DNA from: Eledone cirrhosa | Lineage: Eukaryota | Assembly (NCBI GenBank): GCA_964016885.1 | Contig: OZ024742.1 | Coordinates: forward strand, 8,060,001-8,124,000 | Direction: 5' to 3' | Length of the DNA: 64,000 nucleotides | In this document: positions 19,741-62,926 of the stretch, piece by piece | Numbering within the stretch: position 1 is the first letter of the stretch | How the letters are laid out: each line of letters starts with the position of its first letter | Made by a program: the position numbers and the translations under genes | Notes under the pieces: generated by a model | The model's database searches: none | What the model was told of the DNA's origin: nothing | What the model saw: the letters and a program-made list of their open reading frames with translations, nothing else

Positions 19741-19886
19741 TACCATTTTAAAGGGTCCGTCGAGCTGCCGATTATTGAGTCGGGTAAGATCGATACAGAT
19801 TGAACCTTGAGCTGATCAGTGGCGAAACGCGCGTCACCTACCAATAAATGTAATGAAGGAGTAACCAATCGTCCTTGTTATCCTTT

Positions 19887-19890
<4 letters not shown>
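19741..19890 (+). mobile_element. PLE pLTR-like 3' fragment ending in (TA)n
   Basis: Nearly identical (reverse complement) to 42060-42208. Contains CTGATCAGTGGCGAAACGCGCGTC then AATAAA, resembling the minimal hammerhead region of PLE pLTRs. Confidence 0.65.
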
Positions 19891-19975
<85 letters not shown>

Positions 19976-25208: not shown

Positions 25209-26160
25209 TTAAGGAAACTATCTGGGAAAATGAAATGAATTTATTTCATGGGAGAATCAAAAGCCACATATACATTTCTCGGACATGTAAAATATTCTCA
25301 AAATTCTTGTTCCAAAATATTGATACACTAGAAACAAAAAGTATGAGAAATTAGTAGGTACTATCAGATCTTAAGATTCTCTTCTCCAATCTTTCGCATC
25401 AAGAACCTGTTTAGCAAGAATGTCGCTAAACATACTTAGTTGTACACATATGACCAACACGGACGACGGAACGTAATCAAGTCTTCCTCTGAGATATTTC
25501 ATATATATATTATATTCATTTCTCTCTAGAATGCCAGATTAAATATCTATAAATTGTTTCATTTAAAGCCGAGCAAACTCAAACAATTTGTTGATAATTC
25601 TATTAAAGACGACAGGAAAACACAAGGAAAACTTGGATGTACGCAGAAATGAATCAAACATTGAACATTCAACATTGGCTGTGAACGGGGTTCTACCATA
25701 ACAGCCATAGCTGCAATGGCAAAAAGAAACTAAAGAGCTTGATTTCCAAGTTAACTTACTTTTAAGATATATGTAGTTATTAGTTGAAAAAATATATAAA
25801 AATTAGGAAGATATATAGATAGACAGAGAGTCAGACAGATCAATAGATAGATAGTGAGATAAATAGATAGATAGTTAGTTTGTTGGTTAGATATCTTTTA
25901 GTTAGATAGATAGATAAATTTCTTTATTAGCCACAAGGGCACAAAAGAAGAGGACAAATACAAATGGGGAGTTTACATACAGGTATATGAAAATAAAACT
26001 ATTAATACAATAACAAATAACAATTGAAATCCCCAATAGGGGGGGGGGGTGTTACACAGGGGTTGTACACACCTCCGAAAAAATGTACAACCCTCATCTC
26101 CAGGAGCACCAATAGTGAGTACTCCCTTCCTCTCTTCCTCTCTTCCTCTTTTTCCTCAAC

Positions 26161-29100
26161 CTACAAGCTTATTTAGAGAGAAGGCCTAACCACTCGGGCC
26201 ATCTTTGCCACATTCACCCACCTTCTATAAAATTTGCTGGGGTGCAGCACCTTTCTCTCCATCCTGATTCTTCTACCAAAATAATATTTGAAAAAATGAA
26301 TCAGTTGCTCGCCGGAGAGAAAGGTGTCTGACCTCAGCCCTTTTAACCTCGTCCACCATATAACCTCTTTCACCATAGCCATAACACATAGGAAAACCTC
26401 CTCTCCCTCGTTTTTGAAGGAGGGTGGCGGTATGATCATGACAATGGACTCGGTGGTAAAATGGATTGGTCCCACCCGCGACAATAGTCGTTCTACATAG
26501 CCCCACAGGTCGGTAACGCCCGGGCAGTGTACAAATGCGTGTGCGACGGTTTCCTCGTCGCGCACGCATCTCGGACAGATCTTTTTCGAAGGGTCCCTAC
26601 CCGGGCGCCCGTGTCTGTAGAGCTGGTCTCAAACTGGTAGAGCTCCTCGGTAGCACTGCCAGGCCAGGGACTTTTGGAAGTTGTCCAATTGGTCCCGGGC
26701 GGAAGGTCCTACCGAACAGACTGGCCAGTTCGTCCTCCTCTACGCCTAGAGATTCTCCGAGCGTGTCGTCGCACTTGCTGCGGACCAACCCTCTATAGAA
26801 TGTCGAAGTGGAGTCTCCACTGATCGCCGGCTCCGTTTGCCAGAGGACTGTGAGCGCCTGAGCACATTCGATGTGCCAGTCGCCCATTTTCCTCGGTCTT
26901 TGCTTGACCCAGGACTGCAGCTCGGTCAGCGAGACGAGTCGTGGGAAGGCTCCCCTCACGAACGAGGCCCACACCGGTTGTCTGGTGAGGAATACGTGGA
27001 GGTGCCGCAGCCTGAGCGCTTGTTTGCGCATCGTCAGCCACGGCATCCCCAGCCCTCCGTTTGAAGAGTGTTGGCAGCAGATGGATCCTCTCACCAAAGG
27101 AGCCTGTTTCTTCTAAAGGAATTGGAAGAGCGCGTGCTCCATTTTGGTGAGCGTTTTGGCTGGACTGGACAAGGCACGAGGGTCAAGCGATAGTAGATGA
27201 CGGACGCTATAAAAGTGTTCGCCACCTCCGCTCGACCTTTCAAGTATAGTTTGCACTCGGCCCACTTCTGGGTTAGCGCAAACACCTTGGCCGTCACCTC
27301 GTTCCAGTTCTTCTCCACCTGGAGGTCCGGACCAAACCAGACCCCGAGCAGCTTTACCGGTCCTTCCGTCCAGCGTCCGACGACGTCATCGGAAGGCACC
27401 GGTTTGCCTCTCCACGTTCCGAGTTGCAAACCGACGGATTTGTCCCGGTTCAGCTTCGCTCTTGTGAACCTTTCGTATTCCTCCAGTAAGGTGCCGACGT
27501 CCCCGAATTGCGAGGTGCTCGACACAATTACTGTCACGTCGTCGGCGTAGGCCGACGCCGCTTTTCGCAGTCCCGGTTCCAAAGGGATGCCCTGCAATAG
27601 CTCCAACTTCCGCAGTAGTGGCTCGAGAGTCAGTACGTACAGAAGGGAGGAGAGAGGGCATCCCTGTCGGATGGATCGCGTGATATGGAACGGCTCCGAG
27701 AGGTAGCTGTTCACCTTGACCCTTGAGCAGTTGTTGCTGCTGTGCATTGCAGCAATCCAGCCCCTGAACACGGGACCGAAGCCTGTCGCCTCGAGCACCG
27801 CATCCAGGTAACGATGGTCAACCCTATCGAAAGCCTTAGACTGATCCAAGTTGATCAGGGCCCCACCGAAGCCGGGTTTACACCCTACCCTCTCTATGAT
27901 GTATCGCATGAGGTGGACGTTGTCGTGTGTGGACCTGGTCGGGATTGCGCATGTCTGCGCTTCTCCCACCAGGTTTTCAACGACAAGCACCAGTCTCTTT
28001 GCCAACACCTTGGCCAAAATCTGTAATTCTGTGTTGAGCACAGTTATGGGCCGGAAGTTGCCTATGTCATCTCCCTTGTTCTCGTCATTCCTGACTAACG
28101 TGATTACGCCCTTGGTCACAGAACTGGGAATTCTCCCGTTCTGCTGCCAGTTGCAGTAGACCGCTTCGAGGAGACCGGAGAATAAGTCCGGCATTGCTAC
28201 GTAAAATTCGTAGGGTAGACCGTCGAGACCTGGAGATTTGTGTTTGCCGCATTGGCTCAGCGCGTTCCCTATCTCAGCGGCTGAAATCGGCCTTTCGCAG
28301 AACTTCGCCTCGCTGTCCGAGAGTCACGGTAGGCCGTCGAGGTATGAACCGAAATCCATAGCCCCTCCTGTCGCGCCGCCCTGCCCGAACAGTCGAGCAA
28401 AGTGCCGCTGAAAGGCCGCGCACATTTGCTTCGGCTCACGTAACACGCTTCAGTCTTAGTCCTTCAAAGACCGAATCGTGGACTTTTGCCACTTTTCGCC
28501 TCCGTCACCCGGGCCCAGCTAACAGCTTTGGCTCCCTCGTTTCCCAGAGCACGTATTTTACTTCTGACAACGCAGCCTTCATGCTTTGCGTCGAAGAACT
28601 AGTCCAAGGCCGTTCTCGTCGCTAGCACGCTGGCTACGTTACCACTCCTAAGTGCCTCTTCTACTTTATCTACCAGTTCATTTTCGGTCTTATTTCTATC
28701 TAACAATAATTCTTTACTAAAACCTATCGAGTCTAATCTAACTGCCCCCTTGAGAGAGTATCACCATCTGTTGTTGACAATAGCCCCTGTCAAGTGCTGC
28801 TTAACTAAAGTGCTAATCAGTCTACTGTAGACTTTGCATGTCGGTAACGACAAGTTCAGCTTCTAGTAGCTGGGTCCCTGTCTATGGGTTTTGTCAAGGT
28901 TGACTAAGCAGATCACTAATTTGTAATCTGAATAGGCAACCATGAACATTTGTGGACAGCTTAACATGTCCCTATCCTTCTTTCTGACTAGAACCCTATC
29001 TAGGTACGATCTAGATGTTCCGCTAATTTTAGTCCACGTCCACAGTGGCATAGTAGGAAAATCTAGTCGATATCTATTGGCCAGGTCAAATCGACCGATT

Positions 29101-29603
29101 AACTGTTTGAGGCTGTTACACCCCCCTCTATTGGGACATGCTCCCACATAGTCCCAACGTGCATCTAGTATTCCATTCCAGTCCCCCACTAACAGCAGGA
29201 AGCGGGACGTTCCCAGAAAAGTCTCTAGACGTTTGAAGAAGTCTGGCTGCGGTGTCACGGATGGGGCATATGCGGCCACCAGCCTGAAGCCTCCACCTTC
29301 ACTACCGTCAACGTCTAGGACCACCAGTCGACCCTCCGGGTCCAGATGTACCGTCTGTGTTACGAGGTCCAGGTGTTTCCGCAGCAAAACGGCAACCCCA
29401 CCCCCACCACCCGGCTGACAGAGAGATGCGTAAATCTCAAGGTCGTCGAAGATGGGGGCCAGTTGACGCTCGCTGTGGATCCTGGACTCGCAAATGGCTA
29501 CTACATTCATACTGTGCGACCTGAGGTCGTTTAAGAGTTTGCCCTGTTTCCAGGGCATCCCCAGGCCGCGTACATTCACACATCCAACTCTTATATTGGC
29601 CAT
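26161..29603 (-). pseudogene. Copy 1 ORF2 (APE endonuclease + RT + C-terminal zinc finger), with stops and frameshifts
   Basis: MANIRVGCVNVRGL, GDWN, YLDRVL, QGCPLS, YADD and CPRC..ETVAHAFVHC spread over ORFs 28863-29603, 27091-28194, 26597-27097 and 26173-26565. Confidence 0.93.
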
Positions 29604-30373
29604 GTTGGTGCTGAAAAGTTAAAAGAAGAGGAAAAGAAATCACTCACCTCTTCGTCTCCTGGGAACTAGGCTGCACAATTTCCATGGGGGTGTTGGAGGG
29701 GTTGTTTGGTGGGGTGGTGGTCTCTGGAGGGGTGGGGACAGAGATGTTTGGTGGGAAGGGGGTGTCTGGTGTGATGGGGGTGGGGGGGATATTTTAACAG
29801 GACTCGATTGTAGGGTTTGACGCAGGGTTTACCTACGTCGTTAGGAAATGTTTCTTTTAACTGTTTATGTGTGTCCATGGAGGCCCTAATCATTTTAAGA
29901 TTAGGATCCTCCGAAGAATGTGTAAAAGTTTTCCCTTCGGTCTCCACCGAAGGGTTTTTATATATGGTGTCTGTTAAAGTTTTATTGTTAGTATTTATGT
30001 AGGTGTAACATTTTTGTTGTGTTGGGTTGCTTTTTGTCTGGGGTTCTTGTGTGTGTTTACGTTTTGTAGTAGGTGTTTTGTTTTCAGGAGGGGGTGTTTT
30101 TGTTTGTGCTGTTTGCGTCGCTTGTGTTGGTGTTTGTGTGTTTGTTGCATTTTTGTTTGTGTTATGTCTTTTCTTTTTCTTTTTACTGGTCGGAAAGACA
30201 CTCCCTCATCGTCACTGGGTGACGATGAGGGAGTGTCATCCGTGTTGTTGGGGAGGGGTACATTTTGGGGAGCTGTTATGTGTGTGGGTGTTTCTGGAGT
30301 TGTTTTAGGTGGGTTGGGGTTGGGTGGGACTGTGTTTGTCGTTTGTTTTGTTGTCACTATTTTTTTATGTTGT

Positions 30374-30442
<69 letters not shown>

Positions 30443-31714
30443 GGGGTGGTGGTGGTGATTGTTGTGCTGGTGTTGCAGGTGTTGGCAGTAGTGCCTTTTT
30501 TTGGCTAGTTAGCCGAGGACAGGAAGCTCTCAGGTGACCCCTGCTTGAGCAGTGGTAGCATGAGGGCCGCCTACCCTCGACCGAAATGTTTATGTATATA
30601 AGCCCATCCAGCAACACACGTTCCGGCATCCTAGCTATTCGTGCTGGTGTCATTTGGACCAGAACTTCCAGGCTAGTTCCGCTGAACAGGTCGCCGGAGG
30701 ACTTACCTACCGATATTATATAGTCTGTTTCGTGGTTTAAAAATCCACATAGTACCCACCAAATATCAATATTTAGTGTGATACTTTGGATTTTTACTTT
30801 CTGTGTCCTTTTCCCCATGTAAATGGGGAAAAAGATGAACAGCGGTGACACAATTGGCGACACAGAATATTTATCTGCCGTCAATTGGTCTTTCATTAGA
30901 ATGGTTAAACTCCCGTAGAGTCTACCCTTCTGAATAAAAGCAATGTCTTTTAAGGCATTTTTTAAAACCAACTCAATTTCGCCTTGTGAAAGTTGAGTCG
31001 GTTTTCGGGTTTTGTTTGAGACTGTCCTGAAAATTACAGTTTTCAAGGCAGCTTCTCTTCGCAAATCTGAGGGAGAGTTTATGGAGAATGATCCGTTCTC
31101 CCCAAAAGTTACATATTGTCTGGCGTTATTCAAAAGCTCATTTGCATTTGAAATATCTACCGAAGTGTAGCTTACCGTTTTCTTTACGGTTTGCGCAAAT
31201 GATATTTTGTCGTTTACTTCCTTGTTGCAGTTATTGGTATTGTTGTTGTTATTGTTGTTATTGTTGATGTTGTTTTCGTTTTTCCGTTGTTGGTGTTGTT
31301 GTTGTTGTTGTTGGTTGTGGTTTTGTTGTTGTTGTTCTTCTAGTTCTCGTTGTGACTGTTGTTGTTGATGGCGTTGTTTTGGTTTGTGCCATTCACAGTT
31401 TTCGTGTTGGTGGTGCTGGTGTTGTTGTCAGGGTGTGTTTTAAACATATCGAAGTGTTTCAATCAGGCGGTGCGAGCTGCTTCTTGGCTTGACAGTTTTA
31501 CCGTCCCTCCACCACCTCTGTCTAATTGTTGGCTGACAGATTTGATGTTGTTGTTGTTTTTGTTGCTGTTGTTGTTATTGTTGTTGTTGTTGGTGATAGC
31601 AGCAGGCAGTCAACCTTCACCTGCTACTAGTGCTGTGGAAGGTGATATTAACAGCCCATCTCCACAATTCCCTGATGTGTTTTTTGTGAAGACGAGGTCA
31701 AAGAATTTGGCCAT
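29590..31714 (-). pseudogene. Copy 1 ORF1 (gag-like, CCHC zinc knuckle), disrupted, with (CAA)n expansions
   Basis: CYHCSSRGHLRASC in ORF 30357-31133; clear homology to copy 4 ORF1 (GENG.FSINSP, RLYGS, VEGRRP, KRK, NRVLLK). The 5' limit (ATG at 31714) is uncertain. Confidence 0.85.
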
Positions 31715-31944
31715 TTTGGCTATATTCAAAATTCCGGTAGAAATTTTGTGGAATTTCTCCGTTTTTCGCCCTGATGGACTTATTATTTGGGGTTGCTACC
31801 ACCTACCAAGTGTAGGGTGGCAGCTTATCTACAAAATGGTGAAGAATGTAGATTCAGTTCATGCAATTTCCAATGAAATTAAAACATTTACTCACCAGCG
31901 CGTTTTCCACGTGTTAGACAGAATCTGAGATGGATAGATAGATA

Positions 31945-32910
31945 TGTTTCTTTTATTTGCCACCAGGGCATCAAAAGTGGGACAAGTACAATGGGGGGAG
32001 TTTACAAAACAAGGCGTCCTCAATAAGGAGGAGGCAATAACAATATATAAAAATAAAATAAAATATAACAAAAAATAAAATTTATAACAAAGTCCTCCAT
32101 AGAGAGGAGGCGCCTTGGGGGGTCGCACACACCCCCGAAAAAAGTGTGCAACCCTTCTCCTCAGGAGCACAGAGAAGGGGTGCTCCCTTGGTCTTTCATC
32201 TTCCTCACCTATAGTCTGATGTAGAGTGAAGGCCCATTCACACGGGCCATTCTCGCCACTTTCACCCATCTTTCATAGAAACGGCTGGGGTGCAGCACCT
32301 CTCTCTCCATCCTGATCCTTCTTCCGAAATGATATCGGAAGAAACGGACCAGTTGTTGGCCAGAGAGAAAGGTGCCTGACCTCAGTCCATACAACCTCTT
32401 TCGCCATGGCTATTACGCACAGAAACACCGCCTCTGCTTCATCTTTGAAGGGGGGAGGCGGCTTGATCATTACAATAGACTCGGTGGTCAACCGGATCGG
32501 TCCCACCCTTGACAGCAGTTGTTCGACATAGCCCCACAGATCGGCTACGCCCGAGCAGTGTACCAATGCGTGTGCAACGGTTTCCTCGTCGCACACGCAT
32601 CTGGGACAGATCTTTTTGGCGGGGTCCCTACCCGGGCGCCCGTGTCTGTAGAGCCTTTCTCGAACGGGTAAAGCTCCTCGGTAGCACTGCCAGGCCAGGG
32701 ACTTCTGGAAGTTGTCCATAGGTCCCGGGCTGAATGTCCTACCGAACAGGCCGGCCAGTTCGTCCTCCTCCATGTCTAGGGCTTCTCCGAGGGCGTCGTC
32801 GCACCTGGTGCGTACCAGCCCTCTATAGAATGTTGCGGTGGAGTCTCCACTGATAACCGGATCCGCCTGCCAGAGGGCGGTGAGCGCCTGGGCACACTCA
32901 GTGTGCCAGG
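31945..32910 (-). mobile_element. Tx1-like LINE copy 2: 5'-truncated (~1 kb)
   Basis: Near-identical to the 3' part of copy 3, with a 17-bp deletion near 32388; (GATA)n at both ends. Confidence 0.93.
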
Positions 32911-32924
32911 ATAGATAGATAGAT

Positions 32925-34641
32925 TTCTTTTATTTGCCACTAGGGCATCAAAAGTGGGACAAGTACAAAGGGGGGAGTTTACACAAAAATGCGTCCTCAA
33001 TAAGGAGGAGGCAATAACAAAATATAAAAATAAAATAAGATATAACAAAAAATAAAATTTTTAACAAAATCCTCAATAGAGAGGAGGCGCCTTGGGGGGT
33101 CGCACACACCCCCGAAAAAAGTGTGCAACCCTTCTCCTCAGGAGCACAGAGAAGGGGTGCTCCCTTGGTCTTTCATCTTCCTCACCTATAGTCTGATGTA
33201 GAGTGAAGGCCCATTCACACGGGCCATTCTCGCCACTTTCACCCATCTTTCATAGAAACGGCTGGGGTGCAGCACCTCTCTCTCCATCCTGATCCTTCTT
33301 CCGAAATGATATCGGAAGAAACGGACCAGTTGTTGGCCAGAGAGAAAGGTGCCCGACCTCAGTCCTTTCAGACGCGTCCACCATACAACCTCTTTCGCCA
33401 TGGCTATTACGCACAGAAACACCGCCTCTGCTTCATCTTTGAAGGGGGGAGGCGGCTTGATCATTACAATAGACTCGGTGGTCAACCGGATCGGTCCCAC
33501 CCTTGACAGCAGTTGTTCGACATAGCCCCACAGATCGGCTACGCCCGAGCAGTGTACTAATGCGTGTGCAACGGTTTCCTCGTCGCACACGCATCTGGGA
33601 CAGATCTTTTTGGCGGGGTCCCTACCCGGGCGCCCGTGTCTGTAGAGCCTTTCTCGAACGGGTAAAGCCCCTCGGTAGCACTGCCAGGCCAGGGACTTCT
33701 GGAAGTTGTCCATAGGTCCCGGGCTGAATGTCCTACCGAACAGGCTGGCCAGTTCGTCCTCCTCCATGTCTAGGGCTTCTCCGAGGGCGTCGTCGCACCT
33801 GCTGCGTACCAGCCCTCTATAGAATGTTGCGGTGGAGTCTCCACTGATAACCGGATCCGCCTGCCAGAGGGCGGTGAGCGCCTGGGCACACTCAGTGTGC
33901 CAGGCGCCCAGTTTTCTAGGTCTTTGCTTGACCCAGGATTGCAGCTCGGTGAGTGAGACGAGTCTGGGAAAGGTTCGTCTCACAAACGAGGCCCACACCG
34001 GTTGTCCGGTGAGGAATACGTAGAGGTGCCGTAGCCTTAATGCGTGTTTACGCATCATTAGCCACGGCATCCCCAGCCCTCCTTTCGAAGGGTGTTGACA
34101 GCAGATGGATCTCCTCACCATAGGAGCCCGCCTCTTCCAAAGGAATTGGAAGAGCGCGCGCTCCATCTTGGTGAGGGTTTCCCTTGGGCAGGGCACTACG
34201 GTCAGGCGGTAGTAGATGACGGACGCTATGTAGGTGTTCGCCACCTCCGCCCGACCTTTCAGGGATAGTTTGCAACTGGCCCACTTCTGGGTCAGTGCAA
34301 ACACCCTGTTCGTAACCTCCGCCCAGTTTTTCTCCACCTGGAGGTCCGGTCCGAACCAGACCCCGAGCAACTTCACCGGGCCCTCCGTCCAGCGTCCGAC
34401 GACGCTATCGGAGGGCATCGGTCTGCCCCTCCACGTGCCGAGTTGCAAACCGATCGACTTGTCCCGGTTCAGCTTAGCCCCTGTGAACTTTTCGTACTCA
34501 TCCAGTAAGGTGCCGACCGCCTCGATTTCGGAGGCCGTCGACACCATTACTGTCACGTCATCGGCGTAGGCCGACACCGCTTTCCGCAATCCCGGTTCCA
34601 AAGGGATGCCCTGCAACAACTCCAACTTCCGCAGTAGTGGC
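32925..34641 (-). mobile_element. Tx1-like LINE copy 3: 5'-truncated (~1.7 kb) with open ORF2 C-terminal half
   Basis: ORF 33186-34625 with YADD and CPRC..ETVAHALVHC; (GATA)n at both ends. Confidence 0.95.
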
Positions 34642-34674
34642 AGGATAGATAGATAGTTAGATAAATAGACAGAC

Positions 34675-34728
<54 letters not shown>

Positions 34729-34959
34729 ATTTCTATTTATTTGCCACGAGGGCACAAAAGAAGGGGACATTTACACAGTGGGGGAGTTTACATAAATCGA
34801 GTAAAGAAAAAAGGAATAACAATAATAATATAACAATAAAAAGTCCTCAAAAGGGAGGGGGCGTGTTGGGGATTGCACATACCCCCGAAAAGTGTGCAAC
34901 TCTTTTCGCGGGGGAAGCCCAGAGAGGAGGCGCTCCCCCTTTCCTCTTCACTTCTTCAC

Positions 34960-37900
34960 CTACAGAACAATGTAGAGAGAAGGCCCATTTACACGGGCCA
35001 TTCTCGCTTCTTTCACCCACCTTTCATAAAACTGTCTGGGACCAAGCACTTCTCTCTCCATCCTGATTCTTCTTCCGAAGTGGTATCGGAAGAAGTAAAC
35101 CAGGTGATGGCCGGAGAGAAAGTCACCCGACCTCAGACCTTTCAGGCGCGTCCACCACACAACCTCTTTCATCATGGCTATTACGCACAGAAAGACCGCC
35201 TCTGCTTCATTTCTGAAGGGAGGAGGCGGCTTGATGTTCACCACAGACTCGGCGGTTAATCGAATCGGCGCCACACGCGACAGCAGTCGTTCGACGTAGC
35301 CCCACAGATCGGCAACGCCCGGGCAGTGTACCAGTGCATGCGCAATGGTTTCCTCGTCGCGCACGCATCTGGGACAGATCTTTTTCGCGGGATCCCTGCC
35401 CGGGCGCCCGTGTCTGTAGAGCTTTTCTCGAACGGGCAGAGCCCCCCGGTAACACTGCCAGGCTAGGGACCTCTGGAAGTTGTCCATGGGTCCCGGGCCG
35501 AAAGTTCTACCGAACAGGCTGGCCAGTTCGTCCTCCTCCATGCCTAGCGACTCTCCAAGGGTGTCGTCGCCCCTGCTAGCCACCAACCCTCTATAGAATG
35601 TCGAGGTGGATTCTCCACTGACAGTCGGGTCCGCTTGCCAGATAGCCGTGAGCGCCTGGGCACACTCAGTGTGCCAGTTGCCCAGTTTTCTCGGTCTTTG
35701 CTTCACCCAGGATTGCAGTTCGGTGAGCGAGACGAGCTGTGGGAAGGCTCGCCTCACAAACGGGGCCCACACTGGCTGACCGTTGAGGAATACCTGTAGA
35801 TGCCGTAGCCTCAATGCGTGCCTACGCATCAACAGCCACGGCATACCCAGCCCTCCTTTCGAAGGGTGCTGGCAGCAGATGGATCTCCTCACCATGGGAG
35901 GCCGCTTCTTCCAGAGGAACTGGAAGAGCATGCGTTCCATGATGGTGAGCTTTTCCTTGGGGCAAGGCACGACGGTCAGGCGGTAGTAGATGACGGACGC
36001 TATGTAAGCGTTCGTCACCTCCGCCCGACCTTTCAGTGATAGTTTGCACTTGGCCCACTTCTGGGTCAGCGCAAACACCCTGCTCGTCACCTCGCCCCAA
36101 TTCTTCTCCACCTGGAGGTCCGGTCCGAACCAGACCCCGAGCAGCTTCACCGGGCCCTCCGTCCACCGCCCGACGACACCGTCTAACGGCATCGGTTTGC
36201 CCCTCCACGTTCCGAGTTGCAAACCGACTGACTTGTCCTGGTTCAGCTTAGCCCCCGTCAGCCTTTCGTATTCCTCCAGTAGGGTGGCGATCGCCCCGAT
36301 TTCCGAGGCGTCCGCCACCATTACTGTTACGTCGTCGGCATAGGCCGAGACCGCTTTGTGCAATCCCGGTTCCAGGGGTATGCCCCGCAGCAACTCCAAC
36401 TTCCGCAGCAGTGGCTCGAGAGTCAATACGTACAGAAGGGAGGAGAGGGGGCACCCCTGTCTGATGGATCGGGTGATTTGAAACGGCTCCGAGAGGTAGC
36501 CGTTTACTTTAATTCTAGAGTAGATGTTGCCACTGTGCATGGCAGAAATCCAGCCCCTGAAAACGGGTCCGAAGCCCGCCGCCGCTAGCACCGCATCCAG
36601 GTAACCATGGTCGACCCTATCGAACGCCTTAGATTGATCCAAGTTGATCAGGGCCCCACCAAAGCCGGGTTCGTAGCCAACCCTCTCTATGATGTATCGC
36701 ATGAGGTGGAGGTTGTCGTGAATGGACCTGGACGGGATAGCGCATGTCTGCGCGTCTCCCACCAAACCACCCACCACAAGCGCCAACCTCTTCGCCAACA
36801 CCTTGGCCAAAATCTGTAACTCTGCATTCAGCAGAGTTATGGGCCTAAAGTTACTTAAGTCGTCCCCCTTGCTCTCGTCCTTCCTCACTAGCGTGACCAC
36901 GCCCTTGGTCACAGAACAGGGAATTCTCCCGTTCTGTTGCCAGTTGCAATAGACAGCCTCGAGGAGTTCGGAGAACAAGACCGGCATAGCTAAATAAAGT
37001 TCGTATGGTAGACCATCGAGACCCGGGGATTTGCGTCTGCTGCATTGGCTGAGCGCTTCCCCGATTTCAGTGGCTGTGATTGGCCTTTCGCAGCACTCCG
37101 CTTCGCCGCTCGAAAGACGCGGTAGACCGTCGAGGTATGGACCGAAGTCCACATCCCCGTCCGGCCCCCCGCCACCTCCGAACAGTCGAGCAAAGTGCCT
37201 TTGAAAGGTCTCGCACATTCGCTCAGGTTCAAGGATCACCCGTCCATCCTGGTCTCGCAAAGACCGAATGGTGGATTTAATCCCACTCTTGGCTTCTGTC
37301 ACGCGGGCCCAGCTAACAGCTTTGGTCCCCTCGTTTCCTAAAGCACGTATTTTACTTCGGACAACGCAGCCTTCGTGCTTCGCGTCAAAGAACTGGCTCA
37401 ATGCCGTTCTCGTCGCTAACACTCTGGCTACGTCTCCGCTCCTAATCGCCTCTTCTAGTTTATCTGTTAACTCCCTTTCCCTCCTATTTCTATTCGCCGC
37501 TAGTTCCTTACTGTAACCTATCGAACTTACTCTAATCTCTCTCTTTAGAGATATCCACCACCTACTGTTGACGATCGCTCCCGTCAACCGCATCTTAACT
37601 AAGCTACTAATCCGGTTTCTGTAATCTTTCTTTGTCGGTAAGGACAAGTTCATCTTCCAGTAACCGGGACCCTGTCTATGCGTTCTATCAAGGTTGACCA
37701 CGCAGGTCACTAATTTGTGATCTGAATAGCCAACCATGATCAGTTCTGGACAACTAAATACGTCCCTATCCTTACTCCTAACCAAAAACCTATCTAGGTA
37801 CGATCTAGATTGTCCACTGCGGTTTGCCCAGGTCCAGGTTGGCGCAGTTGGACAATCTAGTCGAAATCTATCGACCAGGTCGAATCGATCGAGTAACCCC

Positions 37901-38404
37901 TTGAGGCTGCTACACCCCCCTCTATCGGGACATGCCCCTGCATAGTCCCAACGCGCATCTAGGATTCCATTCCAGTCCCCCACTAAAAGCAGGGAACGCG
38001 ACGTTCCTAGAAAAGTCTCCAGACGTTGGAAGAAGTCGGCTCTCTCCGCCCCGAAGGGAGCATAAAGACCGACCAGTCTGAAAGCCCCGCCTTCACCACC
38101 TCCGACGTCCAGCACCAGTAATCGACCCCCCGGGTCCGAGTGAACAATCTGTACGTCGAGAGTCAGACGTTTATCCAGCAGTACGGCAACTCCCCCCCCC
38201 CCCCCCGCCTCCGGGTTGACAGAGAGATGCGTGCATCTCAAAGTCATCGAAGGCGGGCGCCAGCTGTCTCACGCTGCTGATCTGACTCTCGCAAACAACC
38301 ATCACATCTATACTTTGTGACCTGAGGTCACTTAGAAGCTTTGCTTGCTTCCAAGCTGAGCTCAGGCCACGCGCGTTCAAACAGCCAACTCTCAATTGAT
38401 CTAT
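34960..38404 (-). CDS. Copy 4 ORF2 (APE endonuclease - RT - zinc finger); one frameshift in a G homopolymer (38192-38206) and start codon reading ATA
   Basis: 1095-aa ORF 34960-38247 (GDWN, SDHK, PGLDGL, QGCPLS, YADD, CPRC..H..C) plus the N-terminal LRVGCLNARGL in ORF 38171-38395. Confidence 0.93.
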
Positions 38405-40237
38405 TTTGGTGTTGAAAGTGAAGAAAGAAAAGCACTTACCTCTCCGGGTTGCGTAATTTCCATGGCATCAGGTGTGTTGGGTGGAGGGATGTTTTGTGGT
38501 GGTGTGGGGGTACACGTGTGTGGTGGGGTTGGGGTATTTGGAGTTGTGTCAGGGAGAGGGGCGGTTATGGGGAAATCTTTCAAGAGGACGCGATTCAACG
38601 GTTTTAAACAGGGGGGGGCTCACGTCCCGTCTAAATTGTTCTTTTAAGGAACGATAAAGGTCCAGAGGGACCTTTATCATTTTTAAATGGGTGAAGTTCT
38701 CTGTTGAGATAAAGTTTGGCCCTTCGGTCTGCACCATAGGGTTATTGTTTATTAATTTAACCAGTTTTTTGTTTTCTTTATTTATATATGTGTATTGCAA
38801 CGTCTTTTTTTGTGATGCTGTCAATGTTTCGGAGAGGGGAGGCGCAGATTTATTTTTGTTTGTTGAGGGTGGGGTGTTTTTGATTGGAGTTGGTGTTTGT
38901 GTGTGGGTTATTTGTGGTGTGCTGGGTGTGTGTTTTCTTTTTTTTCTTTTAACTTGTCTGAAGGCTTCTCCTCCTTCTTCTTCAGAAGTTGGGGGAAACT
39001 CTTCAGCGCTAGGTGGGAGGGACGTGTTGTGTGGTTGGTTTTTTTTTGCGGGAGGGGTAGATTTGTTACTGTTTTTTTTATTATTTGTTTGGAATGGGTT
39101 TTGCGGTGGTGGTGGTGGTAATGTTTGTGTCGTGCTTGTGGTTGGTAATGGTGGTGGTGATGTTTGTGTTGTGGTTGGTGGTGGTGATTTTTGTGTCGTG
39201 CTTGTGTTTGGTGCTGGTGGTGGTGATGTTTGTGTTGTGTTTGTGGTTGGTGGTGTCTGTATTTTGTTTGCTGTGTGTGGTATTAGTGTATTTTTGGAGG
39301 TGGGTGGTGCTGGTGTACTGTTTGTGGTGGGTGTGGGCAATAGTCCTTTTTGGGGGATACGTTTCGGGCAGTTAGCCTTAACGTGTCCCCTTTCCATGCA
39401 TAAATAGCATGCTGGTCTTCTCCCCTCTACAATTATGTCTATTGGGGTAAGGTCATCCAGCCAGATGCGATCCGGGATTTGTGCTATTCTTTCGGGCCTC
39501 ATTTGGACTAGTATGTCGAGGCCCATTCCCAGGAACGCATCTCCAGTTGCCTTCCCCATTGACAGCATAGTGTCTTCGCCCATATCAATGAAGCCAGCAA
39601 TAGCCCACCAGAAGTCCATTGTGGGCAGCATTGTTTTTACTTTTATTCTCTGTGTTCTTCTACCCATGTAGGAGGGATAGAAGCTATATGTTGTCGACGA
39701 GAGTGGGCTTAGGGAAAGCTGAACCGCCGTTTCTTTGTCTCTTGTTAGGACCGAAATGCTGCCATAGAGTCGGTCCTTTCGTATGAAGAGAATATTCTTC
39801 ATATAGTCTTTTAGGACTAACTCTATTTCCATTTGGCTGGGCTGTGCTGGCTTTCTTGACTGGTTTAGTATAGTTCTGTATATAACTGTGTTTTCTGCTC
39901 TGGCTTTCTTGAATTCTGGGGGGGAGTTAATGGAAAACATTCCGTTCTCCCCCAAAACAATATGTTTCTTTGCTTCGGCCAGTTTTTCTCTGGCGGCAGT
40001 TAGGTCAATTGGTGTGTATGTAATGGATTGCTTTGTTTTCTGGGCGAAAGTTGCCCTGTCGTTATTTGTATTATTTTCTGTTTGTTTGTTTTCTGTTTGC
40101 TCATTTTCCTTAACATTTGTTTTTTCATTTTGTTTGTTTGTTTCAATGTCTAATTTTGTTGTAATTATTTTTTGTTCTTCAGACTTGGGGGGCGTGGCAG
40201 AGCTAATGGCAGACATGTCTGCCATCTTTTCCGCCAT
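38401..40237 (-). CDS. Copy 4 ORF1 (CCHC knuckle, Pro/Thr-rich linker, basic KRKKRK patch); one frameshift in a C homopolymer near 38615
   Basis: CYLCMERGHVKANC in ORF 38549-40264 (first ATG: MAEKMADM). The C-terminus continues in ORF 38401-38598 (NRVLLK, homologous to copy 1). Confidence 0.9.
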
Positions 40238-41039
40238 GCTGCCAAGAAAGAAATTTTTCGGCAAAAATAGATATTTATTTTACCCCCTAAAAAGGGGGTA
40301 AATGCAAAAATGTTTCCCTAAATAACAGGGGTTAGTGTTCCAAATGTGTTGCACTAAAAAATTTATCCGGTACTTACAATAGTAAGGGTAAATCCCGATG
40401 GAATAGCGGAGCCGATGCGAAGCGTGTCTTACTCTATCAAGATAGATAGATAGATAGATAGATAGAGCGCTGGAAAAAAAAAATAAAAAAAAAAGCAGTT
40501 TTAAAGAAAATGAAGTGAAAGTATTTGAATGTGTATATTTAGTAAGAAAGAGAAATAAAAACAACGCACATCGAAAATGTAAGAGGCTGAATGAAATGAA
40601 GGAAGGGGCAATTTAGAGAAAAAGTGAAAGGAACTCTAATAGAAGACAGACGAAAGGAATTGATTAAATAATGAGAATAGTGGGAGATAGCATAACATAA
40701 ATGGCTGCAGAATGTTCCATATTGTAAAAGAGAAACTTCATTCTATCCAATATTCAAACATTACATGTAAGTGGTGAACTGGGAAATCTTCGTAAGAACA
40801 TCAAGCTATAAAATCTGAAACTACTCGTCTCAAACAGTGACGTATCCACCATCAACGCCAACTATCGTTAGATACTAACCCGACATCAACATTAGTATCA
40901 CTGTTATTACTCATCAACAACACGCACCAATACTAATGGCTGGTGGACAGGCGTCAGTTGCAACGGTATGTTCTCTACTTGATCTAACCAGAAATTTAAT
41001 TCAATGTATTATAATATATATATATAAGGCTTCGAATTT

Positions 41040-42007: not shown

Positions 42008-42059
<52 letters not shown>

Positions 42060-42063
<4 letters not shown>

Positions 42064-42372
42064 AAAGGATAACAAGGACGATTGGTTACTCCTTCATTAC
42101 ATTTATTGGTTGGTGACGCGCGTTTCGCCACTGATCAGCTCAAGGTTCGATTTGTATCGATCTTACCCGACTCAATAATCGGCAGCTCGACGGACCCCTT
42201 AAAATGGTCCATTTTACGCGCGTCACCTACCAATAAATGTAATGAAGTAGTAACCAATCGTCCTTGTTAGCCTTTCAATATATTACACTCTGTATAGCTC
42301 TACACCTCAACACAGAAGTGAACCTAAACATCGAGTGCTCACCCGGGTGAACCTGCAGTAACTCAAACTTAC
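42060..42372 (+). mobile_element. PLE pLTR remnant with inverted arms (42060-42208 reverse; 42217-42282 forward) plus tail
   Basis: Same family as 19741-19890; inverted duplication read directly; left end in (TA)n. Confidence 0.7.
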
Positions 42373-43515
42373 TCACACACATGGGCAGCAAATTTCCACT
42401 ATTGTGCATGCATTCTTTTCCCTGTCCCATATCATTATATCTGGTCTATTATGCCTGCATTTTATTGGGGCTTTTACTGGAACATTCCACCAGTACTCTT
42501 TCATATTATGTACGTGGATGTCTTCCACATTGCTGTAGCTTTTAATGTGTTTTTTATCGGGGCTATATTTTCTACGGATTGCATCGTACAGTGTTTTGGC
42601 CACTACATCATGCCTCATAGGTAGATAGTACCGCGATGACATCTTTGGACAGCTGCTGATGACATGGGTGACATCTTCGATGTTAATTCTGCAGAGTCTG
42701 CACTTGTTATCACATCTAGGTGTTTTGCCTGCATCCCTATCTCTTTTGTGACTCAGGTATTTGTGTTAATTTCCTGTTCTTGGATTGCAAAAGCGTATCT
42801 TTCAAAGTGGGAGCCAATATAGCGGTTGTTGGTCCAAGATAGAATACTTTCCTTATCTATATTACTCTCACTCTGGAGCTTCCTGGCAACCTATCCATGA
42901 ATGATTTTTTGCTGAGAAGCATGCAGTTTTTCATCCATAGATTCACTGTGATAATGCTGAGCGACTTCCCTGGGTTGTCACACGGAATATCTCCCGAGAA
43001 GTTCCTTCCCAACTCTCATGATCTTATCTGTTTCATGCAGATAGTCTTGCTCGAGAAACGGGCTCCTACGCTTCGAGGTTCGTATAGGTTGTCGGAGGGA
43101 TATAATGCGACATTCAAATGCTGTCTCGAGTGATGTTAGGCCTCTGCCTCCCTGCTTACATTTCAAGTAAAGGCGGTCTATGTCACTTTTGATGTGGGAG
43201 TTTCCGGTGTTGTTTAGTATTTTTCGAGTTCTAACATCAACTGCTTGGATTTCGTCTATCGTCCAATTGAGTATTCCAAACGTTGGTGTTAGGAAAGGCA
43301 CAGCAAACACATTGTGAGCCACTGTTTTGTTTTGCGCAGAGAGTTCCGAGGACCAAATTTTTCTTAATCGGGTGTAGTATTCCCTGGTTACGCGTTCCTT
43401 ATTACAGACACCATTATATGATATGTTCTCATCTATCCCCAGGTATCTGTAGCAGTCCTCATCAGATATCGGTGAAACAGTTAGGCCATTGATGACAATG
43501 TTGCTAGATTGGGTT
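42373..43515 (-). mobile_element. Internal fragment of an R4/Dong-like RLE-type non-LTR retrotransposon, decayed
   Basis: YRYLGI, DRLYL..KQGGRGL, CRLC...HVISSCPKM, RHD.V and HNRPDI..WD...IVEICCP (ORFs 42978-43532 and 42373-42642). Confidence 0.85.
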
Positions 43516-43575
43516 GTATGTATGTGTCTCACGCCAGTCCCACCCTCTTAACCAAGATGATATTCTTTTTGGTAA

Positions 43576-44656: not shown

Positions 44657-47600
44657 TTGTCAAGGTTTCTATCTGGACATTATACGTTATAGGTCTACCC
44701 AGTGGTTGTCAAGGTTTCTATCTGGACATTATACGTTATAGAAGGTCTACCCAGTGGTTGTCAAGGTTTCTATCTGGACATTATACGTTATAGAAGGTCT
44801 ACCCAGTGGTTGTCAAGGTTTCTATCTGGACATTATACGTTATAGAAGGTCTACCCAGTGGTTGACAAGGTTTCTATCTGGACATTATACGTTATAGAAG
44901 GTCTACCCAGTGGTTGTCAAGGTTTCTATCTGGACATTATACGTTATAGAAGGTCTACCCAGTGGTTGTCAAGGTTTCTATCTGGACATTATACGTTATA
45001 GAAGGTCTACCCAGTGGTTGTCAAGGTTTCTATCTGGACATTATACGTTATAGAAGGTCTACCCAGTGGCTGTCAAGGTTTCTATCTGGACATTATACGT
45101 TATAGAAGGTCTACCCAGTGGTTGTCAAGGTTTCTATCTGGACATTATACGTTATAGAAGGTCTACCCAGTGGTTGACAAGGTTTCTATCTGGACATTAT
45201 ACGTTATAGAAGGTCTACCCAGTGGTTGTCAAGGTTTCTATCTGGACATTATACGTTATAGAAGGTCTACCCAGTGGTTGACAAGGTTTCTATCTGGACA
45301 TTATACGTTATAGGTCTACCCAGTGGTTGTCAAGGTTTCTATCTGGACATTATACGTTATAGAAGGTCTACCCAGTGGTTGTCAAGGTTTCTATCTGGAC
45401 ATTATACGTTATAGAAGGTCTACCCAGTGGTTGTCAAGGTTTCTATCTGGACATTATACGTTATAGGTCTACCCAGTGGTTGTCAAGGTTTCTATCTGGA
45501 CATTATACGTTATAGAAGGTCTACCCAGTGGTTGTCAAGGTTTCTATCTGGACATTATACGTTATAGGTCTACCCAGTGGTTGTCAAGGTTTCTATCTGG
45601 ACATTATACGTTATAGAAGGTCTAACCAGTGGTTGTCAAGGTTTCTATCTGGACATTATACGTTATAGAAGGTCTACCCAGTGGTTGTCAAGGTTTCTAT
45701 CTGGACATTATACGTTATAGAAGGTCTACCCAGTGGTTGTCAAGGTTTCTATCTGGACATTATACGTTATAGAAGGTCTACCCAGTGGTTGTCAAGGTTT
45801 CTATCTGGACATTATACGTTATAGAAGGTCTACCCAGTGGTTGTCAAGGTTTCTATCTGGACATTATACGTTATAGGTCTACCCAGTGGTTGTCAAGGTT
45901 TCTATCTGGACATTATACGTTATAGAAGGTTTACCCAGTGGTTGTCAAGGTTTCTATCTGGACATTATACGTTATAGAAGGTCTACCCAGTGGTTGTCAA
46001 GGTTTCTATCTGCACATTATACGTTATAGGTCTACCCAGTGGTTGTCAAGGTTTCTATCTGGACATTATACGTTATAGAAGGTTTACCCAGTGGTTGTCA
46101 AGGTTTCTATCTGGACATTATACGTTATAGAAGGTCTACCCAGTGGTTGTCAAGGTGTCTATCTGGACATTATACGTTATAGAAGGTCTACCCAGTGGTT
46201 GTCAAGGTTTCTATCTGGACATTATACGTTATAGGTCTACCCAGTGGTTGTCAAGGTTTCTATCTGGACATTATACGTTATAGAAGGTCTACCCAGTGGT
46301 TGTCAAGGTTTCTATCTGCACATTATACGTTATAGGTCTACCCAGTGGTTGTCAAGGTTTCTATCTGGACATTATACGTTATAGAAGGTTTACCCAGTGG
46401 TTGTCAAGGTTTCTATCTGGACATTATACGTTATAGAAGGTCTACCCAGTGGTTGTCAAGGTTTCTATCTGGACATTATACGTTATAGAAGGTCTACCCA
46501 GTGGTTGTCAAGGTTTCTATCTGGACATTATACGTTATAGGTCTACCCAGTGGTTGTCAAGGTTTCTATCTGGACATTATACGTTATAGAAGGTCTACCC
46601 AGTGGTTGTCAAGGTTTCTATCTGCACATTATACGTTATAGGTCTACCCAGTGGTTGTCAAGGTTTCTATCTGGACATTATACGTTATAGAAGGTTTAAC
46701 AAGTGGTTGTCAAGGTTTCTATCTGGACATTATACGTTAGAGGTCTACCCAGTGGTTTTCAAGGTTTCTATCTGGACATTATACGTTATAGAAGGTCTAC
46801 CCAGTGGTTGTCAAGGTTTCTATCTGGACATTATACGTTGTAGAAGGTTTACCCAGTGGTTGTCAAGGTTTCTATCTGGACATTATACGTTGTAGAAGGT
46901 CTACCCAGTGGTTGTCAAGGTTTCTATCTGGACATTATACGTTATAGGTCTACCCAGTGGTTGTCAAGGTTTCTATCTGGACATTATACGTTATAGGTCT
47001 ACCCAGTGGTTGTCAAGGTTTCTATCTGGACATTATACGTTATAGAAGGTCTACCCAGTGGTTGACAAGGTTTCTATCTGGACATTATACGTTATAGAAG
47101 GTCTACCCAGTGGTTGTCAAGGTTTCTATCTGGACATTATACGTTATAGAAGGTCTACCCAGTGGTTGTCAAGGTTTCTATCTGGACATTATACGTTGTA
47201 GAAGGTCTACCCAGTGGTTGTCAAGGTTTCTATCTGGACATTATACGTTGTAGAAGGTCTACCCAGTGGTTGACAAGGTTTCTATCTGGACATTATACGT
47301 TATAGAAGGTCTACCCAGTGGTTGTCAAGGTTTCTATCTGGACATTATACGTTATAGAAGGTCTACCCAGTGGTTGACAAGGTTTCTATCTGGACATTAT
47401 ACGTTATAGGTCTACCCAGTGGTTGTCAAGGTTTCTATCTGGACATTATACGTTGTAGAAGGTCTACCCAGTGGTTGTCAAGGTTTCTATCTGGACATTA
47501 TACGTTATAGAAGGTCTACCCAGTGGTTGTCAAGGTTTCTATATGGACATTATACGTTATAGAAGGTCTACCCAGTGGTTGTCAAGGTTTCTATCTGGAC

Positions 47601-50600
47601 ATTATACGTTATAGAAGGTCTACCCAGTGGTTGTCAAGGTTTCTATCTGGACATTATACGTTGTAGAAGGTCTATCCAGTGGTTGTCAATGTTTCTATCT
47701 GGACATTATACGTTATAGAAGGTCTACCCAGTGGTTGTCAAGGTTTCTATCTGGACATTATACGTTATAGAAGGTCTACCCAGTGGTTGTCAAGGTTTCT
47801 ATCTGGACATTATACGTTATAGAAGGTCTACCCAGTGGTTGTCAAGGTTTCTATCTGGACATTATACGTTATAGAAGGTCTACCCAGTGGTTGACAGGGT
47901 TTCTATCTGGACATTATACGTTATAGAAGGTCTACCCAGTGGTTGTCAAGGTTTCTATCTGGACATTATACGTTATAGAAGGTCTACCCAGTGGTTGACA
48001 AGGTTTCTATCTGGACATTATACGTTATAGAAGGTCTACCCAGTGGTTGTCAAGGTTTCTATCTGGACATTATACGTTATAGAAGGTCTACCCAGTGGTT
48101 GACAAGGTTTCTATCTGGACATTATACGTTATAGAAGGTTTACCCAGTGGTTGTCAAGGTTTCTATCTGGACATTATACGTTATAGGTCTACCCAGTGGT
48201 TGTCAAGGTTTCTATCTGGACATTATACGTTATAGAAGGTCTACCCAGTGGTTGTCAAGGTTTCTATCTGGACATTATACGTTGTAGAAGGTCTACCCAG
48301 TCGTTGTCAAGGTTTCTATCTGGACATTATACGTTGTAGAAGGTCTACCCAGTCGTTGTCAAGGTTTCTATCTGGACATTATACGTTATAGAAGGCCTAC
48401 CCAGTGGCTGTCAAGGTTTCTATCTGGACATTATACGTTATAGAAGGTCTACCCAGTGGTTGTCAAGGTTTCTATCTGGACATTATACGTTATAGGTCTA
48501 CCCAGTGGTTGTCAAGGTTTCTATCTAGACATTATACGTTATAGAAGGTCTACCCAGTGGTTGTCAATGTTTCTATCTGGACATTATACGTTATAGAAGG
48601 TCTACCCAGTCGTTGTCAAGGTTTCTATCTGGAAATTATACGTTGTAGAAGGTCTACCCAGTCGTTGTCAAGGTTTCTATCTGGACATTATACGTTATAG
48701 AAGGTCTACCCAGTCGTTGTCAAGGTTTCTATCTGGACATGATACGTTATAAGTCTACCCAGTGGTTGTCAAGGTTTCTATCTGGACATTATAGGTTATA
48801 GAAGGTCTACCCAGTGGTTGTCAAGGTTTCTATCTGGACATTATACGTTATAGGTCTACCCAGTGGTTGTCAATGTTTCTATCTGGACATTATACGTTAT
48901 AGAAGGTCTACCCAGTGGTTGTCAAGGTTTCTATCTGGACATTATACGTTATAGAAGGTCTACCCAGTGGTTGTCAAGGTTCCTATCTGGACATTATACG
49001 TTATAGGTCTACCCAGTGGTTGTCAAGATTTCTATCTGGACATTATACGTTATAGAAGGTCTACCCAGTGGTTGTCAAGGTTTCTATCTGGACATTATAC
49101 GTTATACGTCTACCCAGTGGTTGTCAATGTTTCTATCTGGACATTATACGTTATAGAAGGTCTACCCAGTGGTTGTCAAGGTTTCTATCTGGACATTATA
49201 CGTTATAGAAGGTCTACCCAGTGGTTGTCAAGGTTTCTATCTGGACATTATACGTTATAGGTCTACCCAGTGGTTGTCAATGTTTCTATCTGGACATTAT
49301 AGGTTATAGAAGGTCTACCCAGTGGTTGTCAAGGTTTCTATCTGGACATTATACGTTATAGAAGGTCTACCCAGTGGTTGTCAAGGTTTCTATCGGGACA
49401 TTATACGTTATAGGTCTACCCAGTGGTTGTCAATGTTTCTATCTGGACATTATACGTTATAGAAGGTCTACCCAGTGGTTGTCAAGGTTTCTATCTGGAC
49501 ATTATACGTTATAGAAGGTCTACCCAATGGTTGTCAAGGTTTCTATCTGGACATTATACGTTATAGAAGGTCTACCCAGTGGTTGTCAAGGTTTCTAGCT
49601 GGACATTATACGTTATAGGTCTACCCAGTGGTTGTCAAGGTTTCTATCTGGACATTATACGTTATAGAAGGTCTACCCAGTGGTTGTCAAGGTTTCTATC
49701 TGCACATTATACGTTATAGGTCTACCCAGTGGTTGTCAAGGTTTCTATCTGGACATTATACGTTATAGAAGGTTTAACAAGTGGTTGTCAAGGTTTCTAT
49801 CTGGACATTATACGTTAGAGGTCTACCCAGTGGTTTTCAAGGTTTCTATCTGGACATTATACGTTATAGAAGGTCTACCCAGTGGTTGTCAAGGTTTCTA
49901 TCTGGACATTATACGTTGTAGAAGGTTTACCCAGTGGTTGTCAAGGTTTCTATCTGGACATTATACGTTGTAGAAGGTCTACCCAGTGGTTGTCAAGGTT
50001 TCTATCTGGACATTATACGTTATAGGTCTACCCAGTGGTTGTCAAGGTTTCTATCTGGACATTATACGTTATAGGTCTACCCAGTGGTTGTCAAGGTTTC
50101 TATCTGGACATTATACGTTATAGAAGGTCTACCCAGTGGTTGACAAGGTTTCTATCTGGACATTATACGTTATAGAAGGTCTACCCAGTGGTTGTCAAGG
50201 TTTCTATCTGGACATTATACGTTATAGAAGGTCTACCCAGTGGTTGTCAAGGTTTCTATCTGGACATTATACGTTGTAGAAGGTCTACCCAGTGGTTGTC
50301 AAGGTTTCTATCTGGACATTATACGTTGTAGAAGGTCTACCCAGTGGTTGACAAGGTTTCTATCTGGACATTATACGTTATAGAAGGTCTACCCAGTGGT
50401 TGTCAAGGTTTCTATCTGGACATTATACGTTATAGAAGGTCTACCCAGTGGTTGACAAGGTTTCTATCTGGACATTATACGTTATAGGTCTACCCAGTGG
50501 TTGTCAAGGTTTCTATCTGGACATTATACGTTGTAGAAGGTCTACCCAGTGGTTGTCAAGGTTTCTATCTGGACATTATACGTTATAGAAGGTCTACCCA

Positions 50601-55021: not shown

Positions 55022-55402
55022 TGTTCTGGGAGTGGTTCTTCATGGTAGATTTTTATACTTCTTTTCACACCAACAACAACATTAAACTCCTCACATCTTC
55101 AAATTGAAAATATTACACACACGTTTGGGTGTTTGATATTTATATATATATGTATGATATAATATATGTATACACACTCACACACACACACAAGAAATAT
55201 ATATATGTATATATATTAGTAAAAGGAAAAGAAAATGGTAACAAATTTTTCCCAGTGAAAAATAGTTTAATTAGGAATAAGTATAAATTTGTAATAAGTA
55301 TTGGTTAGTATTGAGTTTTAGTTTTAAGTTTTTACCGGTTGCGCATTTCTAATGCTTTTCAAAAATAATTTTGAGAAAGAGCGCTCGTGATGTTTGCTCT
55401 AA

Positions 55403-61003: not shown

Positions 61004-61031
61004 ACTCTCTCTCTCTCTCTCGCTTACCCCC

Positions 61032-62926
<1,895 letters not shown>

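What the first reader, a model, noticed from the sequence alone, without database searches (positions are those of the whole stretch)
34960..38439. LINE ORF2 appears to sit exactly inside a spliceosomal intron
Seen on the minus strand: a perfect donor just before the ORF2 start in both diverged full-length copies, GAG|GTAAGT at 38439 (copy 4) and GAG|GTGAGT at 29647 (copy 1), in an otherwise poorly conserved ORF1 tail. In all four copies the ancestral ORF2 stop is TAG followed by GT, preceded by a pyrimidine tract and followed by a GAA-rich stretch: CCTTCTCTCTACATTGTTCTGTAG|GTGAAGAAG (34960), CCTTCACTCTACATCAGACTATAG|GTGAGGAAG (33186, 32209), CCTTCTCTCTAAATAAGCTTGTAG|GTTGAGGAA (26161). Inference: splicing of a ~3.48-kb intron (34960-38439; 26161-29647) would remove all of ORF2, leaving an ORF1-only mRNA that keeps the 3'UTR hairpins. 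This could set the ORF1p:ORF2p ratio, act as an on/off switch, and spawn ORF1-only non-autonomous elements. Established analogy: Drosophila copia makes gag from a spliced RNA; I do not know of a precise equivalent in Tx1 LINEs. Caveats: no clear branch point, and the post-splice reading frame differs between copies.
Basis: partly seen in the sequence, partly recalled or inferred. Interest (0 to 1): 0.8.

Follow-up and report, generated by a model that had tools for sequence, protein, structure and literature searches.

The report
LINE stop codon doubles as splice-donor
In an abundant animal LINE retrotransposon family the stop codon of the first gene sits inside a conserved splice-donor sequence and the stop of the second gene inside an acceptor-like one, so splicing would remove the whole reverse-transcriptase gene and likely tune the two proteins' ratio, though no spliced RNA has been seen.

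Summary
The motifs are real and at the stated places. The element is a two-ORF L1/Tx1-type LINE that inserts into (CTAT)n arrays, with about 15,400 3' ends in the genome. Correction: the 'donor' is the ORF1 stop codon. Intron positions +2 to +4 read TAA, TGA or TAG depending on subfamily, and the flanking donor letters are invariant in 8 of 8 subfamily clusters, including two lineages whose ORF1 stop has moved. It is the best or second-best donor match in four of five elements scored. Two chimeric subfamilies are joined exactly at the donor, each to a position after a CAG in another subfamily's ORF1 tail, a likely fossil of splicing. The acceptor is weaker: TAG+G is kept in 16 of 16 clusters, but four lineages have a rival AG 7 nt upstream. 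No retroposed ORF2-less copy exists among at least 1,738 donor-bearing copies, which cis-preference could explain. No run on record as RNA was available. Verdict: donor likely functional (about 0.65); the whole-ORF2 intron is plausible but unshown (about 0.38).

The parts
34729..40440 (-). Copy 4, full-length LINE of a young subfamily ('A'), between CTAT repeats
   Evidence: 40 of 40 scored 3' hits are 100% identical
38549..40237 (-). ORF1 of copy 4 (weak zinc knuckle), ending early after an 8-C run at 38611-38618
38401..38463 (-). True ORF1 tail frame of subfamily A (20 codons), its stop overlapping the ORF2 start
38434..38442 (-). 5' splice-site sequence, copy 4 (intron +1 = 38439)
34960..38404 (-). 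ORF2 of copy 4 (endonuclease, RT, zf-RVT); starts ATA; frameshift in a G-run near 38200
34957..34980 (-). Acceptor-like site: pyrimidine-rich end of ORF2, stop TAG (34962-34960), then GT and a purine-rich stretch
34729..34959 (-). 3' UTR with conserved blocks and a polyadenylation signal at 34741-34736
32911..34644 (-). Copy 3, 5'-truncated, subfamily D type; stop TAG ends at 33186
31930..32910 (-). Copy 2, 5'-truncated, 96.6% like copy 3; stop TAG ends at 32209
25915..31920 (-). Copy 1, full-length decayed copy of subfamily B
29642..29650 (-). 5' splice-site sequence, copy 1 (intron +1 = 29647); ORF1 stop TGA is +2 to +4
29604..29641 (-). Pyrimidine-rich ORF1-ORF2 spacer of copy 1, with a CAG 37 nt after the donor (not conserved in A, C, D, G)
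26161..29603 (-). ORF2 of copy 1, broken; stop TAG ends at 26161

Best explanation
The ORF1 stop codon of this LINE family lies inside a conserved 5' splice-site sequence that is likely a working donor, and its likely regular partner is the AG of the ORF2 stop codon, so a fraction of transcripts would lose all of ORF2 and become ORF1-only mRNAs. Shown: the geometry, the conservation, and two chimeric subfamilies joined exactly at the donor. Inferred: unspliced RNA makes both proteins and retrotransposes in cis; spliced RNA keeps the 3' UTR and poly(A) signal, regains a stop at or near the junction, supplies extra ORF1 protein and, lacking ORF2, is rarely copied back. Also inferred: in read-through RNA of head-to-tail arrays the donor sometimes lands in the next element's ORF1 tail and founds a chimeric subfamily.
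For: Donor positions -2, -1, +1, +2, +5, +6 are invariant in 8 of 8 clusters (114 copies, 3 rows dropped) against 7 of 16 fourfold sites, 0 of 11 positions just upstream and 1 of 10 just downstream; four of them are not forced by the stop or by Arg (rough p about 0.04). 110 of 117 distinct copies keep the motif (8 were picked for carrying it). It is kept in lineages A and H, where it no longer holds the ORF1 stop. Top or second donor match in four of five elements. None of 26 distant relatives with a called ORF1 has this stop context and 1 of 22 complete ORF2s ends TAG+G (29 of 54 loci examined). TAG and +1 G in 16 of 16 clusters, +2 T in 14 of 16 (2 rows dropped). Acceptor ranks in the top 3 of 157, 7 of 148 and 5 of 154 YAG sites in A, G, H. 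A join gives a stop 1 codon on in 18 of 28 copies, 3-4 codons in 7. 12 loci are chimeras cut exactly at the donor, two independent junctions, each after a CAG; the 5' part of the second is 96% like copies with an intact donor; a 9-nt control window gave 7 ordinary deletions or duplications and no chimera.
Against: No retroposed donor-to-3'UTR junction: 1 false positive, 0; the 12 and 2 acceptor-side hits are short local deletions or duplications, against 1,738 donor-bearing tails and 15,417 ORF2 ends. Those hits also show that a shared AG alone produces recurrent junctions without splicing. 60 of 60 ORF1-tail loci run on into ORF2. Acceptor is mediocre in B and D (35 of 178, 25 of 156) and has a rival AG upstream in 17 of 28 copies. 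The regained stop follows largely from GT plus purines, so it is not independent support; copy 1's subfamily would read 22 codons on. No chimera at the donor among 38 hits in subfamilies G and H. The subfamilies share recent ancestry (mean identity about 0.7), so conservation p-values are modest and post hoc.
Confidence: 0.38

Rival explanations
1. No splicing: both motifs are inherited stop-codon contexts (stop followed by G favours termination; recalled) and the chimeras arose by reverse-transcriptase template switching at a shared AG.
For: The variable donor positions are exactly the three stop codons. 7 of 16 fourfold sites are also invariant. Shared-AG slips recur at the ORF2 stop in at least three subfamilies. 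For the first chimera the two templates, aligned on the ORF2 start, lie within about 7 nt of the junction (read). No junction copy in the genome; none at the donor in G/H.
Against: The motif persists where the stop has moved; terminal Arg is always the same codon while neighbours vary; the second chimera is a 75-76 nt offset with only 2 nt of homology, again exactly at the donor; distant relatives lack the context.
Confidence: 0.35
2. The donor works, but its job is not the whole-ORF2 intron: it binds U1 to steer 3'-end processing, or splices to downstream acceptors in neighbouring copies or host genes; the TAG+G is incidental.
For: The only fossil junctions go to acceptors in other subfamilies' ORF1 tails. 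Acceptor strength varies and has a rival AG.
Against: TAG+G is fixed in 16 of 16 clusters against 2 of 13 fourfold sites and 26 of 235 UTR columns; it is the acceptor-like site that leaves a terminal exon with the element's own poly(A) signal. Cis-preference filters the fossil record towards ORF2-retaining products (PMC5860796, passages).
Confidence: 0.27

Closest known systems
Drosophila copia spliced gag RNA (and plant Ty1/Copia EVD, BARE1)
   Same: An intron covering the whole polymerase region gives an RNA for the structural protein only (PMC5580714, passages).
   Different: copia is an LTR element with one ORF and the splice is demonstrated; here a two-ORF non-LTR element, both sites on stop codons, splice not shown.
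Human L1 splicing: SpORF2 and SpIREs
   Same: LINE RNAs carry working donors and acceptors and spliced forms are retroposed (PMC2896524, PMC5860796, passages).
   Different: Those splices remove 5' UTR or ORF1 and keep ORF2, within one element; here the predicted intron removes ORF2, and the fossil junctions join two subfamilies and founded multi-copy lineages.
Tx1-clade microsatellite targeters Kibi and Koshi
   Same: Non-LTR elements inserted into specific microsatellites (PMC4494074, passages); here CTAT repeats.
   Different: Different repeat and host; clade placement not tested by tree; the passages read say nothing of splicing.
HAL1 (half-L1) elements
   Same: ORF1-only derivatives of L1 are what the spliced RNA would found (definition recalled; only search listings seen).
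   Different: No such copy found in this genome.

Membership tests
L1/Tx1-group non-LTR retrotransposon | ORF2 with APE endonuclease and RT | tested here: met
   PF03372 and PF00078 above cut-off; best solved match human L1 ORF2p, E 2e-48
L1/Tx1-group non-LTR retrotransposon | C-terminal zinc-binding domain in ORF2; ORF1 with zinc knuckle | tested here: inconclusive
   zf-RVT E 1e-5 to 4e-5 but just under cut-off; zf-CCHC E 0.017-0.05
L1/Tx1-group non-LTR retrotransposon | 5' truncation and a 3' poly(A) signal | tested here: met
   15,417 ORF2 ends against 3,912 ORF2 starts; signal in 92 of 97 ends
Tx1 clade | Target preference for a repeat | tested here: met
   55 of 97 distinct 3' ends run into CTAT repeats within 14 nt of the signal
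Tx1 clade | RT phylogeny with named Tx1 elements | not tested
   no named Tx1 references among the hits
Spliceosomal GT-AG intron | Donor consensus | tested here: met
Spliceosomal GT-AG intron | YAG acceptor with pyrimidine tract, no rival AG | tested here: inconclusive
   good in A and G, rival AG in B, C, D, H
Spliceosomal GT-AG intron | Branch point | not tested
   no branch-point model was run
Spliceosomal GT-AG intron | Spliced RNA observed | not testable with these tools
   no holder on record as RNA
copia-type structural-protein-only RNA | Intron spans the whole enzyme region and leaves the structural ORF with a stop | tested here: inconclusive
   geometry fits; predicted stop within 4 codons in 25 of 28 copies; RNA unseen
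SpIRE (spliced, retroposed LINE) | Genomic copy with a junction at canonical donor and acceptor inside one element | tested here: not met
   none within one element; the two junctions found join different subfamilies
HAL1 | ORF1-only genomic copies | tested here: not met
   0 junction copies; 60 of 60 tails continue into ORF2

The most novel reading that the evidence does not exclude
A LINE family has placed all of ORF2 inside an intron whose two ends are its two stop codons, a copia-like switch between an ORF1-only mRNA and the full retrotransposing RNA; the same donor, splicing across head-to-tail copies, builds new chimeric subfamilies.
Probability: 0.38. Interest if true: 0.8.

Novelty: new variant of a known kind. 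Interest (0 to 1): 0.52.

Why it matters
How two-ORF LINEs make far more ORF1 than ORF2 protein is explained mostly by translation. A built-in, conserved ORF2-removing intron would add the copia strategy to non-LTR elements and give hosts a splicing lever on a very active family. The chimeric junctions would also show splicing between tandem copies as a way to found new LINE subfamilies. Eight literature searches (open-access library only) listed no LINE with a whole-ORF2 intron and none with splice-made subfamilies. One RT-PCR would test it.

Tried and rejected
No RNA holder listed for the stretch; this is no evidence either way. Four runs of unrecorded kind, contigs only, were laid on 34730-39300: none of the 15 joints shown (of 105) is the proposed one, and in run X4 single contigs cross the donor (38219-38565) and the acceptor (34730-35328) unbroken; X4 also has more depth on ORF1 than ORF2, but contig depth cannot rank parts and the run type is unknown, so none of this is used. 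A 37-nt micro-intron fusing ORF1 to ORF2 in subfamily B: acceptor absent in A, C, D, G and no such junction among the hits; rejected. Stop read-through into ORF2: in frame only in some subfamilies; rejected as general. Eight internal deletion junctions inspected do not start at the donor and mostly sit on short repeats. One search's pattern missed one 3' UTR type and was redone. (control downstream of the donor) had low power and gave 0. Metagenome relatives are mostly 22-34% identical, too far to date the motifs. The number of intact donors in subfamilies G and H was not obtained, so one search has no denominator. No earlier scan notes exist for this genome. No supplements were read.
Full report
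Observation. All quoted motifs are in place. The region 25.9-40.4 kb holds four head-to-tail copies of one LINE family on the minus strand, separated by CTAT repeats. ORF2 has endonuclease, RT and a weak zf-RVT match, ORF1 a weak zinc knuckle; the best solved match is human L1 ORF2p and the nearest named protein is from Argonauta hians, 64% identical over 64% of the query. The family is large and partly very young: 15,417 ORF2 ends, 3,912 ORF2 starts, and 40 of 40 scored 3' hits identical to copy 4. 55 of 97 distinct 3' ends run straight into CTAT repeats, like the microsatellite-targeting Tx1 elements Kibi and Koshi (PMC4494074, passages).

What the donor is. Full-length copies from about ten subfamilies show that ORF1 ends in a Met-Glu-Ile/Val...Arg-stop tail and that the stop codon is intron +2 to +4: TAA in D and B2, TGA in B, TAG in C, G and two rarer lineages. 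An intact copy confirms the frame (L128). Window copy 4 hides this: its lineage lost 14 nt before the donor, so ORF1 runs 12 codons past it and stops on the ORF2 start, which reads ATA in 30 of 30 close copies; this copy also has a C-run shift. The three stop variants are also common donor hexamers (recalled), so that variation alone cannot separate the two readings. The flanks can. Positions -2, -1, +1, +2, +5, +6 are invariant in 8 of 8 clusters (114 copies; L079, L116, L197 dropped for large rearrangements), while 0 of 11 positions upstream, 1 of 10 downstream and 7 of 16 fourfold sites are. The motif survives in lineages A and H where the stop has moved. It is the first or second donor match among 264-300 GT sites in four of five elements and tied top in the fifth. 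None of 26 distant relatives has the context (29 of 54 loci examined, some ORF1 calls short).

The acceptor. TAG and the next G are fixed in 16 of 16 clusters, the next T in 14 (56 copies; L010, L086 dropped), against 2 of 13 fourfold sites and 26 of 235 UTR columns; 1 of 22 distant ORF2s ends this way. By pyrimidine content it ranks in the top 2-5% of YAG sites in A, G and H but only 25 of 156 and 35 of 178 in D and B, and 17 of 28 copies have another AG just upstream. A join would leave ORF1 with a stop one codon on in 18 of 28 copies, 3-4 codons in 7, and 22-42 in 3.

Fossil record. 30 of 30 copy-4-type and 30 of 30 copy-1-type tails continue into ORF2 (30 of 40 scored hits each, one of each the window's own). 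Genome-wide, 1,738 tails carry the donor. Junction patterns gave one false positive and zeros; 12 and 2 acceptor-side hits are local deletions or duplications, several at a shared AG. So no ORF1-only copy was found. L1 proteins favour their own RNA (PMC5860796, passages), so an RNA without ORF2 should rarely be copied; the blank counts against trans-mobilised offspring more than against splicing.

Unexpected result. Asking for tails followed by foreign sequence gave 15 hits at 13 loci. One is a 9-nt deletion. Twelve are chimeras cut exactly at the donor. In six, an ORF1 of its own lineage is joined to a D-type tail right after a CAG, and the rest is 96-97% like D-type copy L243 in the five tested. 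In four, an ORF1 of B type (three testable, 93-96% like L108, L208, L095, which have intact donors) is joined to the first chimera's tail, again right after a CAG 75-76 nt upstream. Two more have the B-type ORF1 on the first junction. Both junctions have only the AG in common. A 9-nt control window upstream gave 10 hits: two subfamily-A variants and seven ordinary deletions or duplications, no chimera. This fits splicing from one element's donor into the next element of a tandem array, the one kind of product that keeps an ORF2 and can be copied. Against: I searched at the donor on purpose, there are only two events, the parent of the first is unseen, AG-only slips occur elsewhere, and subfamilies G and H show no such chimera in 38 hits (six inspected, the rest read from the printed match).

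RNA. No holder is on record as RNA, so the splice is untested.

Mechanism and odds. Donor functional about 0.65. Regular splice to the ORF2 stop, giving an ORF1-only mRNA, 0.38; donor used otherwise 0.27; inherited stop contexts with template switching 0.35. It would work like the copia gag-only RNA (PMC5580714, passages) and mirror human SpORF2, which drops ORF1 instead (PMC2896524, passages). It is not a HAL1 or SpIRE case by the tests above. Eight searches of the open library listed no equivalent in a LINE; the TART splice-site paper (PMC1636488) was seen only as a listing.

Noticed in passing
L247-L261, L286-L296: Two successive chimeric LINE subfamilies joined exactly at the donor; the second restores the ORF1 frame so that it again stops inside the downstream donor.
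   Followed up: yes
window 38404-38402; L031-L060, L238-L245: A whole young, very abundant subfamily starts ORF2 with ATA, overlapped by the ORF1 stop, which suggests AUG-independent reinitiation.
   Followed up: partly
window 38611-38618 and about 38193-38207: Length-variable C-run and G-run shift ORF1 or ORF2 in many otherwise 99-100% identical copies (slippage or assembly error).
   Followed up: partly
L262-L275: The same 7-nt deletion between two AGs removes the ORF2 stop independently in at least three subfamilies.
   Followed up: partly
window 1-16141: 64-bp tandem satellite of about 250 copies, about 92% alike.
   Followed up: no
window 44657-55025: Second satellite, period about 52 and 101-104 bp, about 95% alike.
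   Followed up: no
window 42373-43547 (minus): Fragments that read like another retroelement (RT end and a restriction-like endonuclease motif), judged by eye.
   Followed up: no
window 60998-62926 (plus): 642-codon stop-free frame after a CT microsatellite; not identified.
   Followed up: no
window 19742-19918, 42032-42208, 42216-42283: A 177-bp dispersed repeat, 98% alike, with an inverted partner.
   Followed up: no
   Followed up: no
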